From: Escherichia coli | GTDB lineage: Bacteria; Pseudomonadota; Gammaproteobacteria; Enterobacterales; Enterobacteriaceae | Strand: one strand, 5' to 3' | Assembly (NCBI RefSeq): GCF_030013595.1 | Contig: NZ_CP122768.1 | DNA: 64,000 nt | Shown: piece after piece, positions 61,001-64,000 of the stretch | How the letters are laid out: every line of letters begins with the position of its first letter | How positions within the stretch are numbered: the stretch's first letter is position 1 | Program-made: the position numbers

Positions 61001-64000
61001 GGTAAAATCGTCGAGATTATGTGGCGCAGCTACTGTATTCAAAATGAAATCGAAACTCTTGAGATGAGCCGCCATCTCATCGGCATTGCGTGAGTTAACA
61101 ACTTCATCGGCCCCCAGGGCTTTTGCCGCTTCGCGTTTTGACTCAGAAGTGGTAAATGCCACCACATGCGCCCCCATCGCGTGGGCCAGCTTAATCCCCA
61201 TATGTCCCAGACCGCCGATGCCGACCACGCCCACTTTTTTACCCGGCCCGGCCTGCCAGTGACGTAGCGGCGAATACGTGGTGATCCCTGCACACAACAA
61301 AGGAGCCACCGCCGCCAGCTGCTCTTGCGGGTGACGAATACGCAGAACATATCGCTCATGAACGACGATCTGTTGTGAGTAGCCGCCCAGAGTATGGCCC
61401 GGTTCGTCCGGCGTCGGCGAGTTATAGGTGCCGGTCATGTGATCACAGTAGTTTTCCAGCCCGTCTTCACACTCTTCGCAATGTTTACAACTGTCGACAA
61501 TGCAGCCGACACCGACCAGATCGCCCGGCGCATGTTTTTCTACCTGATCACCAACGGCTACCACACGCCCCACAATTTCATGACCCGGCACGCAGGGGTA
61601 AACCGTCCCCGCCCACTCGGAACGGACCTGGTGGAGATCGGAATGGCAGACGCCACAGTAAGCGATTTCAATTTTGACATCATGCGGTCCCGGTTCACGC
61701 CGGGTGATATCCATCGGTTCCAGCGGTTGTTTAGCGGAATATGCACCAACAGCTTTGATCTTCATTGTGTTTACTCCTGATTAGCTATGTGTATTTGGCG
61801 ATGCCTGATATGTCATCGCGGCAAAACGCGTCCATTGAATATAGCCAATATTTAAACCACCCGATCCAGCCCCAACATGCCGCGAGCCTGAATGAAACAG
61901 AGCAGCAACGTTCCCCATAAAGCCATCGTCAGGTAGGGGCTTATACCGAGAATATTGAAGCCGCTTTCAATAATTTGCAGAAGAAACAGCGCCAGCACCA
62001 TACCAATTATCCGCCCGCTGCCGCCGTCCGGATTAACCCCGCCGAGTACTGCCGCGAGGATTGACACCAGCAAGTACGATTCGCCATAAGAGGCCTTAGC
62101 CGAGTTGAGTTTCGACATCATCAAAAATGCCGCTACCGCACAAAGCAAGGCGGAAATAACATACACCCATATCAGCACCCGACGAGTGTTAATACCGGAG
62201 TAAAGTGTTGCTCGTTCGTTAGAACCAATCAGATAAATGGCTTTACCGAGCGGCGTTTTCTCCAGCAATATCCACAGCCCCAGCGCCACTGCGGTAAACA
62301 ACCACATCGGTAGCGGAATACCGAACCACTGTGCATGATTCAACCACAGCACCCATGAGGGATAATTGGCAATGGCGCTACCGCCTGTCACCAGAATATT
62401 TACCCCTTTGAGCAACGTCATCATCCCAAGCGTTGCAAGAATTGGCGACACTCGAATACCAGCAATCAATACGCCGTTACATAAACCGATTATCACCGCC
62501 GCGCCAGCGCCCGCCAGTAACGTAGCGACAACCGTAGCAATACCCGGTGGATACTGAGTCGCCACCCACGCCATCACCAGTGAACAGGCGTTAGCAGTGG
62601 CAATAATTGACAAGTTAATGCCACCGCAAAGCATGGTCACCGCCATAGCCAACGCCAGAATGCCCAGCACGGGCATTTGCGAAGCGACGGACTGGAAATT
62701 ACTTATCGACCAGAAAATCTCCGGCATAGTAATGCTGAACGCGGCAACAGTTAGCACCAGCAGGCCGATCAAGTAAAACTCAACGTTATTACGCCACGAT
62801 TTTTTCATAGCAGACTCCGGTTCTGATGCTGACTCCACGCCGTGGCGCTAATGCTGGCAACGATGATGATGCCTGTGATCAATGTTTGCCAGTAAGACGA
62901 GACTCCCAATAAATTTAGCCCGTTTTGCATCACTGCCAACAACACCACGCCGAGCAAAGTACCGGTTAACGTGCCGCGCCCGCCGAGCAAACTAGTGCCG
63001 CCAAGCACCACCGCAGCCAGTACTGTCAGCTCATAACCCAGAAGAGAATCGGGGGCGACAGTCATCACCGTCCACGACTGCACTACACCCGCAGCACCAG
63101 ACATCAATCCCATATAGCCATAGACGAAAAGTTGCAGTTTCAGCACACTAAAGCCGATGCGACTGGCTGATTCACGATTCCCGCCAAGGGCATAAATTTT
63201 GCGCCCTACACTGGTGAAATTCATGATAAACGCTGTCAGCAGCACCACCGTAATCATGGCGATCAGCGGCAGACCAAGGCCATAGTCATAGCCGTCAGCA
63301 TCGGTGTACTTGAACAACATAACCCCCTGCTCAAACCACGGCGGAAAGTCGTACAGCCACACACCTTTACTCAACCATAACAGCAGGCCATAGAAAATAT
63401 TCAGCGTCGAGATAGTGATGATGATAGACGGCACCCGTAGGCGATTAACCAGTAAGGCGTTAATTAAGCCAAGTAAAATGCCGATGCCGCCCGCCAGTGC
63501 AAACGCGACAGCAAAGTTGCCACCAATTTTTTGCAGCAACAGCACCATGCCGTATTGCGCAATGATGGTCATTGCCGGAAACGAAATATCAATCCCACCG
63601 GAAATTAACACCACAAACAAACCACAGGCGAGAATAGTCAACATGGCATAGTTATTGGCGAGATCGTACAAATTACCGAATGTCAGAAACTCGTCGCTGC
63701 GCCAGGCAAGGCCAACAAACAGCACCACAATCAGTAATGCCAGCCAGAATTCATGGCGTTTTTTCAGTTCAGCCATTTACCACCTCCGCAATCCTGGCCT
63801 GAGAACTGCTGTCAGGCAGGAAGCTATGGGTGATCTGACCTTTCTGCATTACCAAAATCCGGTGGCTTTGATACCACGCTTCTTCAATTTCATCGCAGAT
63901 CATCAATACCGCAATGCCATGAGCCGCCAGATCGCTGATAATGCCGTATATTCCTGCTTTGTTGGCGATATCAACACCGACAGTCGGGCTATCGAGAATC

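What the first reader, a model, noticed from the sequence alone, without database searches (positions are those of the whole stretch)
61766..64000. Sugar-type ABC transporter directly upstream of yahK marks a strain-variable junction
After yahK the window continues with two ribose/xylose-type permease genes and an ATPase fragment, translationally coupled by ATGA and ATGGCTGA overlaps. From memory this is not the K-12 neighbour of yahK (I recall yahJ there), so this edge may be accessory content.
Basis: partly seen in the sequence, partly recalled or inferred. Interest (0 to 1): 0.35.

Follow-up and report, generated by a model that had tools for sequence, protein, structure and literature searches.

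The report
Known Aau sugar transporter beside yahK

Summary
Window 61852-62808 (-) and 62805-63776 (-) are two intact CUT2-type permease genes. Window 63769-64000 (-) is the 3' end of a tandem ABC ATPase gene. The genes overlap by ATGA and ATGGCTGA and lie 86 bp upstream of yahK on the same strand.

They are aauD, aauC and aauB of the published Aau system (Z0415-Z0419, O-island 17 of EHEC). The window's proteins are 99-100% identical to those of O157:H7. In the nearest genome the binding protein is 325/327 identical to PDB 9I1M, which is AauA bound to D-ribulose. Aau imports D-ribulose (KD about 2 uM) and, weakly, L-arabinose. It is switched on by AraC plus L-arabinose, and AraB phosphorylates the imported D-ribulose.

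The junction does vary between strains. Of 5426 complete E. coli genomes, 2214 carry aau and 2761 carry one shared "scar" allele, K-12 among them.

My one addition concerns direction. The K-12 yahJ-yahK spacer keeps the last ~72 bp of aauD, a decayed piece of the aau promoter and the last 48 bp of an ASCH gene. A ~10%-diverged Escherichia genome has aauABCD next to yahK with flank-like divergence. The locus therefore looks old and lost by deletion, not recently inserted. Novelty: already known. Interest: low.

The parts
60716..61765 (-). yahK (NADPH-dependent aldehyde reductase). It is the conserved flank immediately downstream of the transporter genes on the same strand.
   Evidence: ORF of 349 aa. 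It is identical to the annotated YahK of NZ_CM149870 and present in 5091/5426 genomes.
61766..61851 (-). 86-bp aauD-yahK spacer with no predicted terminator or stable structure.
   Evidence: The scan finds no terminator-like site here. The RNA fold has z-score 0.31. The spacer is 95% conserved in the ~10%-diverged Escherichia locus L033.
61766..61923 (.). Segment shared with K-12-type (aau-negative) genomes: the spacer plus the last ~69-72 bp of aauD. The deletion junction lies at 61920-61923.
   Evidence: 5033 genomes match only query bases 1-155/158. The K-12 alignment ends at L001 20155-20158. PGAP annotates the remnant as a 75-bp N-terminally truncated pseudogene in UPEC132.
61852..62808 (-). 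aauD (Z0419-equivalent by gene order), second permease, 318 aa, intact.
   Evidence: Pfam BPD_transp_2 E = 1.5e-31. It is 315/318 identical to O157:H7 and 318/318 to NZ_CM149870. The NCBIfam best hits RbsC/LsrD/AraH are all far below cut-off.
62805..63776 (-). aauC (Z0418-equivalent), first permease, 323 aa, intact. Its stop overlaps the aauD start (ATGA).
   Evidence: Pfam BPD_transp_2 E = 4.6e-34. It is 322/323 identical to O157:H7. The overlap is read directly from the sequence.
63769..64000 (-). 3' end of aauB (Z0416-7 equivalent), the tandem ABC ATPase: last 76 codons plus stop. Its stop overlaps the aauC start (ATGGCTGA). The gene runs off the window.
   Evidence: Translation. It is 76/76 identical to the O157:H7 AauB C-terminus. 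The full gene is 494 aa with two ABC_tran domains in the nearest genome.

Best explanation
The window ends inside the aau operon (aauABCD; Z0415-Z0419, O-island 17 of EHEC O157:H7). Aau is a CUT2-family periplasmic-binding-protein-dependent ABC importer. The window holds both permease genes (aauC, aauD) and the 3' end of the ATPase gene aauB. The binding-protein gene aauA and its promoter lie just beyond base 64000.

Mechanism, shown experimentally for the 99%-identical EHEC system. Periplasmic AauA binds alpha-D-ribulose tightly (KD about 2 uM) and L-arabinose weakly (KD about 600 uM). It delivers the sugar to the AauC/AauD heterodimeric permease, which is driven by the fused two-domain ATPase AauB. 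Transcription requires AraC and L-arabinose. Imported D-ribulose is phosphorylated by AraB and enters the pentose phosphate pathway.

Inferred here. The aauA promoter has a pBAD-like layout: a CRP-like site followed by AraC I1-I2 half-sites 21 bp apart. This layout is conserved in relatives from other genera, many of which sit next to araC/araBA. aauD may read through into yahK.

Evolution, inferred here. The locus is old at this position in Escherichia. The K-12-type state (about half of E. coli) is a single ancient deletion allele, not an empty insertion site.
For: Identity: the window's AauD is 315/318, AauC 322/323 and the AauB C-terminus 76/76 identical to O157:H7 strain SS TX 754-1. The window is 99.9% identical over 61766-64000 to NZ_CM149870. 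That genome has, in order, yahK, two permease genes, the ATPase gene, the SBP gene, an ASCH gene and yahJ. Its SBP matches PDB 9I1M chain A with E = 4.9e-213 and differs at 2 of 327 residues from O157 AauA. All six published D-ribulose contact residues (Lys37, Trp43, Glu118, His167, Glu196, Ser223 in chain numbering) are present.

Function: PMC12307932 gives the ITC affinities, the crystal structure, the AraC/L-arabinose dependence and the AraB phosphorylation. PMC11127945 gives the Z0415-9 gene roles, the OI-17 location, the loss of promoter activity in a delta-araC strain and the fitness defect in the mouse gut.

Family: BPD_transp_2 twice, ABC_tran twice in one protein, and Peripla_BP_4.

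Promoter: an alignment of 10 upstream regions shows an invariant GTGA-N6-TCACA block and the consensus TAGCnTTTTTATCCATA-TTTA-TAGCAG. araC (NF007860, 492 bits against a cut-off of 208) is adjacent in 26 related loci, and araB/araA in 8-9.

Evolution: the K-12 spacer is colinear with the ends of the island and with an interior piece of it. The scars of K-12 (phylogroup A) and UPEC132 have the same 376-bp length and junctions and differ by about 20 SNPs. 2761 genomes carry this scar. In the divergent Escherichia locus L033 the aau genes are 91-93% identical to E. coli, while the flanks yahK, prpR, yahN and pdeL are 86-92% identical.
Against: aauA, most of aauB and the promoter lie outside the window. 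Their integrity in this particular strain is inferred from a 99.9%-identical genome, and some EHEC lineages (EDL933/TUV93-0) carry a premature stop in aauB.

The AraC-site pattern is not significant on its own: 4 matches against 2.4 expected in 42 kb at 3 mismatches. Its support rests on conservation and position.

The published papers call the locus 'horizontally acquired'. No close AauA was returned from the species representatives of E. albertii, E. fergusonii or E. marmotae. An acquisition at or after the base of the E. coli lineage therefore remains possible.
Confidence: 0.93

Rival explanations
1. It is an autoinducer-2 (Lsr-like) importer, as the RefSeq product name of the adjacent binding protein ('autoinducer 2 ABC transporter substrate-binding protein') suggests.
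For: This is the PGAP product name. LsrB, LsrC and LsrD appear among the sub-threshold NCBIfam hits, and LsrB structures appear among distant PDB hits with E about 1e-21 to 1e-24.
Against: The LsrB equivalog model scores 111 bits against a cut-off of 384, LsrD 146 against 500 and LsrA 382 against 586. The near-identical protein was crystallised with D-ribulose and binds it at about 2 uM. No lsrK/lsrR/lsrFG genes are adjacent.
Confidence: 0.02
2. It is a ribose or xylose transporter paralogue (a literal reading of the first reader's 'ribose/xylose-type').
For: The best NCBIfam hit for permease 2 is RbsC (161 bits), and the ATPase hits AraG, YtfR and XylG.
Against: All these scores are far below the equivalog cut-offs (for example RbsC 161 against 398, XylG 407 against 699). 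D-ribose shifts the AauA melting temperature by only 2 degrees C, against 16 degrees C for D-ribulose, and the promoter does not respond to D-ribose or D-xylose.
Confidence: 0.03
3. Evolutionary rival: the aau segment is a recently horizontally acquired island inserted next to yahK in pathogen lineages, and K-12 shows the original empty site.
For: The papers label it horizontally acquired and report enrichment in phylogroups B1 and E and an association with the LEE. The aauABCD cassette occurs in many genera in different contexts. No close AauA was returned for the E. albertii, E. fergusonii or E. marmotae representatives.
Against: The 'empty' site contains the last ~72 bp of aauD, a colinear ~70%-identical remnant of the aau promoter and the last 48 bp of the ASCH gene. 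An insertion cannot leave such fragments. There is no integrase, transposase, tRNA or flanking repeat between yahK and yahJ and no GC shift. A ~10%-diverged Escherichia genome has aau at the same place with flank-like divergence.
Confidence: 0.2

Closest known systems
Aau (AauABCD; Z0415-Z0419, O-island 17) of EHEC O157:H7 (Cottam et al., Nat Commun 2024 and 2025)
   Same: Same genes, same order, same overlaps and same chromosomal position between yahK and yahJ. Protein identity is 99-100%. In the nearest genome the binding protein equals PDB 9I1M apart from 2 residues.
   Different: Nothing essential differs. This copy is in a non-O157 background (closest genome: a pig faecal isolate). There are 3 substitutions in AauD and 1 in AauC relative to the O157 strain compared. 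Only aauC, aauD and 76 codons of aauB are inside the window.
Rbl D-ribulose locus of Citrobacter rodentium (ROD_24811-61)
   Same: It is an ABC importer with an SBP, a tandem ATPase and two permeases, used for D-ribulose. A group of loci about 60% identical to Aau (C. amalonaticus, Pluralibacter, Cedecea, Serratia, Pantoea) has the same four-gene order.
   Different: Those loci carry their own FGGY pentulose kinase (TIGR01315, 695 bits) and a SIS-domain protein directly downstream. Aau has no kinase or regulator of its own and borrows AraC and AraB. I did not compare with the C. rodentium sequence itself.
AraFGH, the canonical high-affinity L-arabinose ABC importer of E. coli
   Same: It belongs to the CUT2 family and is AraC/L-arabinose-induced. 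AraH and AraG are among the best sub-threshold hits.
   Different: AraFGH has one permease gene (AraH), whereas Aau has two. The AraH and AraG equivalog cut-offs are not met (157 against 378, 418 against 689). The ligand preference differs (D-ribulose far above L-arabinose).
LsrACDB (AI-2) and RhaSTPQ (rhamnose) importers
   Same: Both have two distinct permeases and a Peripla_BP_4 binding protein. The RhaSTPQ gene order (SBP, ATPase, permease, permease) is the same as in Aau. RhaS and LsrB are the top SBP hits.
   Different: Scores are far below the cut-offs (RhaS 137 against 342, LsrB 111 against 384), and the ligand and regulation differ.

Membership tests
Aau (AauABCD, OI-17) transporter of E. 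coli | Permease proteins orthologous (near-identical) to Z0418/Z0419 of O157:H7 | tested here: met
   Window AauC is 322/323 and AauD 315/318 identical to the O157:H7 strain SS TX 754-1 proteins.
Aau (AauABCD, OI-17) transporter of E. coli | Gene order SBP, ATPase, permease, permease, located between yahJ and yahK | tested here: met
   The window shows ATPase end, permease, permease, yahK. The 99.9%-identical genome NZ_CM149870 and O157:H7 show the full order, with aauA and an ASCH gene before yahJ.
Aau (AauABCD, OI-17) transporter of E. coli | Binding protein AauA with the D-ribulose pocket (Lys37, Trp43, Glu118, His167, Glu196, Ser223; PDB 9I1M) | tested here: inconclusive
   aauA lies beyond base 64000, so it cannot be read for this strain. 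In the nearest genome the SBP matches 9I1M with E = 4.9e-213 and all six residues are present.
Aau (AauABCD, OI-17) transporter of E. coli | AraC- and L-arabinose-dependent transcription | not testable with these tools
   This is published for EHEC. Here there is only a conserved CRP-like site plus an AraC I1-I2-like motif upstream of aauA. The pattern alone is not above chance.
CUT2 (monosaccharide) ABC importers | BPD_transp_2 permeases, a single polypeptide with two ABC_tran domains, and a Peripla_BP_4 binding protein | tested here: met
   Pfam gives BPD_transp_2 for both permeases, two ABC_tran stretches in the 494-aa ATPase, and Peripla_BP_4 with E = 4.5e-63. The ATPase N-terminus and the SBP were read from the nearest genome.
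LsrACDB autoinducer-2 importer (the RefSeq product name of the SBP) | Reaches the NCBIfam equivalog cut-offs for LsrB/LsrC/LsrD/LsrA | tested here: not met
   LsrB 111 against 384, LsrD 146 against 500, LsrC 115 against 388, LsrA 382 against 586 bits.
RbsABC ribose, XylFGH xylose and AraFGH arabinose importers | Reaches the NCBIfam equivalog cut-offs | tested here: not met
   RbsC 161 against 398, AraH 157 against 378, XylG 407 against 699, RbsB 46 against 337, XylF 37 against 390 bits.
Horizontally inserted genomic island | A clean empty site in island-negative genomes, mobility genes, tRNA or flanking repeats, and deviant composition | tested here: not met
   The empty site holds fragments of aauD, Paau and the ASCH gene. 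No integrase, transposase or tRNA is annotated between yahK and yahJ. GC is 0.50-0.53, close to the flanks.

The most novel reading that the evidence does not exclude
The 'O-island 17' aau locus is not a pathogen-specific acquisition. It would be an ancestral Escherichia locus at yahK, and about half of all E. coli (K-12 included) carry one and the same old deletion allele. That allele removed aauA-D and the AraC-dependent core promoter (about 4.5 kb) and most of the neighbouring ASCH gene (about 0.6 kb). Under this reading, presence or absence of D-ribulose scavenging is a long-standing two-allele polymorphism shared across phylogroups. A side possibility is that yahK is read through from the arabinose-induced aau promoter in aau-positive strains.
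Probability: 0.6. Interest if true: 0.3.

Novelty: already known. Interest (0 to 1): 0.15.

Why it matters
The transporter itself is published. It gives EHEC a competitive advantage in the gut by scavenging D-ribulose when L-arabinose is present. For a genome scan the practical result is that this window edge can be labelled aauB'-aauC-aauD (OI-17) and set aside.

Three small additions may be useful.

1. The RefSeq product name 'autoinducer 2 ABC transporter substrate-binding protein' for AauA is misleading.
2. The K-12 yahJ-yahK spacer is a deletion scar. The direction of change is therefore loss, which matters when aau carriage is interpreted as 'acquisition' linked to the LEE.
3. A conserved CRP plus AraC I1-I2 motif upstream of aauA, together with the frequent araC/araBA neighbourhood of relatives in other genera, offers a simple explanation for why a locus with no regulator of its own obeys AraC.

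Tried and rejected
1. Composition shift at the junction: none worth noting. The AT-rich segment is yahL/yahM, not aau.
2. Terminator or structured RNA between aauD and yahK: none (fold z-score 0.31).
3. Rfam scan of the whole window: no hit.
4. AraC composite pattern as a statistical test: 4 matches against 2.4 expected, not significant alone. It is kept only as a conserved, correctly placed motif.
5. I first read the 63-bp and 23-bp K-12-specific stretches as foreign 'filler', because blastn found no match and the Smith-Waterman score of 15 was within the shuffle range. A multiple alignment with three intact alleles then showed the 63-bp stretch to be a colinear, ~70%-identical remnant of the aau promoter with an 18-bp deletion. 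The 'filler' reading was dropped for that piece. The 23-bp piece remains only weakly alignable.
6. Literature search for yahJ + yahK + ABC transporter: nothing. The link to the literature came from the PDB hit 9I1M.
8. No structure prediction was run, because a solved structure of the binding protein exists.

Full report
**1. What is in the sequence**

All genes at the right edge of the window lie on the minus strand.
- yahK is at 60716-61765.
- An 86-bp spacer follows at 61766-61851.
- A 318-aa permease gene is at 61852-62808. Its annotated start is the ATG at 62808; the mechanical ORF list runs on to a GTG at 62838.
- A 323-aa permease gene is at 62805-63776.
- An open frame at 63769-63999 encodes the last 76 residues of an ABC ATPase. 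The other two frames are closed.

The permease 1 stop overlaps the permease 2 start as ATGA. The ATPase stop overlaps the permease 1 start as ATGGCTGA.

Both permeases match Pfam BPD_transp_2 (E = 1.5e-31 and 4.6e-34). In NCBIfam their best hits are RbsC, AraH, LsrD, AlsC and MglC, all far below the curated equivalog cut-offs. They are therefore CUT2-family monosaccharide permeases that are not orthologues of any K-12 system.

**2. The rest of the operon**

Window 61766-64000 is 99.9% identical to E. coli NZ_CM149870. From 57000 to 64000 there are only three mismatches. In that genome the order is yahL, yahK, permease, permease, a 494-aa ATPase with two ABC domains, a 327-aa Peripla_BP_4 binding protein, a 136-aa ASCH-domain protein, and then yahJ. 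No regulator, kinase, integrase, transposase or tRNA lies in the roughly 5.5 kb between yahK and yahJ. O157:H7 has the same arrangement.

**3. Identity**

The binding protein matches PDB 9I1M chain A with E = 4.9e-213 and PDB 3D02 with E = 4e-188. 9I1M is AauA of EHEC crystallised with alpha-D-ribulose (PMC12307932). The locus is the Aau system: Z0415 is the SBP, Z0416-7 the ATPase and Z0418/Z0419 the permeases, on O-island 17 (PMC11127945).

The window's AauD is 315/318, AauC 322/323 and the AauB C-terminus 76/76 identical to an O157:H7 strain. The nearest genome's AauA keeps all six published ligand-contacting residues. By gene order, the window genes are aauD, aauC and the 3' end of aauB.

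**4. How it works**

The following is shown in the two papers for the EHEC system.
- AauA binds D-ribulose with KD 1.98 uM and L-arabinose with KD 598 uM.
- The aau promoter responds only to L-arabinose and is dead in a delta-araC strain.
[quoted passage not shown] With L-arabinose present, Aau imports D-ribulose, and AraB phosphorylates it into the pentose phosphate pathway.
- A delta-aau mutant is outcompeted in the streptomycin-treated mouse gut.

The following is inferred here. I aligned ten aauA upstream regions from E. coli, a divergent Escherichia, Klebsiella, Franconibacter, Mangrovibacter, Aeromonas and Symbiopectobacterium. The alignment shows two conserved blocks.
- One is GTGA-N6-TCACA, which is CRP-like.
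- The other has the consensus TAGCnTTTTTATCCATA-TTTA-TAGCAG. From my knowledge of pBAD (araI1 is TAGCATTTTTATCCATA), this is the direct-repeat I1-I2 arrangement of AraC half-sites with 21-bp spacing.

In E. coli the corresponding sites on the minus strand of L001 are as follows.
- CRP-like site: 24699-24684.
- I1: 24672-24656 (TGCCCGTTTTGTCCATA).
- I2: 24651-24635 (TAACCAAATTTTTAATA).

As a bare pattern this is not above chance (4 matches against 2.4 expected). The evidence is its conservation and position. Neither paper mentions a binding site.

The neighbourhood of relatives is consistent with this model. Among 80 related loci, true araC is adjacent in 26 (NF007860, 492 bits against a cut-off of 208), and araB/araA in 8-9. 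A transporter of this family that carries AraC sites in its own promoter would obey the resident AraC wherever it sits.

**5. Strain variability**

Counts over 5426 complete E. coli genomes are as follows.
- yahK is present in 5091.
- The aau segment is present at 80% or more coverage in 2214, or 41%.
- The aauA promoter plus the ASCH gene is present in 2209.
- 5033 genomes match at least the first 155-158 bases after yahK.
- A 176-bp probe spanning the central part of the K-12 yahJ-yahK spacer is found at 80% or more coverage in 2761 genomes.

Intact plus scar accounts for 4975 of the 5033 genomes. The remainder includes IS-mediated rearrangements, for example an IS1 element 44 bp from yahK with loss through yahE in NZ_AP027754.

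**6. Direction of the change**

The 376-bp K-12 spacer is colinear with the intact locus.
- 158 bp equal the yahK-aauD spacer plus the last ~72 bp of aauD, at 98% identity.
- About 63 bp align, at about 70% identity and with an 18-bp gap, to the distal part of the aauA promoter, including a degraded CRP-like site.
- 70 bp equal 22 bp of spacer plus the last 48 bp of the ASCH gene, at 94% identity.
- A short, poorly alignable stretch follows.
- The rest is the sequence downstream of yahJ.

K-12 thus lacks about 4.5 kb (aauD to aauA plus the AraC sites and core promoter) and about 0.6 kb (most of the ASCH gene). Gene fragments at an 'empty' site are the signature of deletion, not of an unoccupied insertion site. 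PGAP itself annotates the aauD remnant as a truncated pseudogene in UPEC132.

The K-12 and UPEC132 scars have the same length and junctions and differ by about 20 substitutions. This points to one old event.

The one other Escherichia genome returned by the species-representative scan is labelled E. coli SCPM-O-B-8794, but it is only about 90% identical in DNA. It has pdeL, 100 bp of the ASCH gene, the aau promoter, aauABCD, yahK and yahL. Its aau genes are 91-93% identical to E. coli, and its flanking genes 83-92%. The linkage of aau to yahK therefore predates that split.

Two caveats apply. No close AauA came back from the E. albertii, E. fergusonii or E. marmotae representatives. I also could not inspect their yahJ-yahK junctions. 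'Ancestral to the genus' is therefore not shown; 'old in the E. coli lineage and lost by deletion in K-12-type strains' is.

**7. Comparison with the known, and verdict**

This is the Aau/OI-17 transporter, which is already known. It is not an Lsr (AI-2) system, despite the RefSeq product name, and it is not a ribose, xylose or canonical arabinose system. All equivalog cut-offs fail, and the published ligand data disagree with those assignments.

The relatives at about 60% identity carry their own FGGY pentulose kinase and a SIS protein. They resemble the Rbl type described for C. rodentium, but I did not compare with that sequence directly.

No terminator or stable structure separates aauD from yahK. 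Arabinose-induced read-through into yahK is possible but untested.

Interest is low. The finding is correct and well explained by existing work. My additions (the deletion scar, the conserved CRP/AraC motif and the misleading product name) are incremental.

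Noticed in passing
window ~50568 (prpE, ORF 50548-52338, minus strand); L001 8763-8812: The window has a 50-bp deletion in the 3' part of prpE relative to the otherwise 99.95%-identical genome NZ_CM149870. It falls between two copies of a 9-bp direct repeat (GGATCGCGT). It shifts the frame, giving a 596-aa ORF instead of the 628-aa propionate--CoA ligase.
   Followed up: partly
window 14244-17153 (-), junction near 17185-17189; L086 15804-17134: A 969-aa autotransporter gene lies between iprA and hemB. The nearest genome has an IS3 element right next to it, and the window lacks that element. The window therefore comes from a close relative of that strain, not the same strain.
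   Followed up: partly
K-12 yahJ-yahK spacer, L002 3509-3884 (corresponds to window 61766-61923 plus sequence beyond the window): Within the deletion scar, the aau promoter remnant is only about 70% identical to intact alleles, whereas the adjacent ASCH and aauD remnants are 94-98% identical. This local excess of divergence is unexplained. Possible causes are relaxed constraint, a divergent donor, or error-prone repair.
   Followed up: partly
L001 24774-25184 (just beyond the window end): A 136-aa ASCH-domain gene (Pfam E = 7e-22; PDB relatives 1T62 and 3S9X) sits between yahJ and the aau promoter. It is co-absent with aau in K-12-type genomes (2209 against 2214 genomes). Neither Aau paper mentions it.
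   Followed up: partly
L004 (NZ_AP027754) 6001-6800; L003 (UPEC132) 2329-2951; L033 8454-9745: The neighbourhood has further structural variants. One genome has an IS1 element 44 bp from yahK with loss of everything through yahE. UPEC132 lacks yahL. In the divergent Escherichia locus, pdeL abuts a 100-bp ASCH remnant and yahJ through yahB are missing.
   Followed up: no
L005 (SFEK01000152.1, 'MAG: Bacteroidales bacterium'): A 4.7-kb contig in a Bacteroidales metagenome bin encodes an AauA 100% identical to the query and AauB/C/D 99% identical to E. coli. This is almost certainly E. coli contamination of the bin.
   Followed up: no
window 59000-60700: The yahM-yahL stretch is the compositionally odd part of this edge, with GC 0.34-0.42 against about 0.51-0.58 in its neighbours. 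yahL is also the least conserved flank in the divergent Escherichia locus, at 83%.
   Followed up: no
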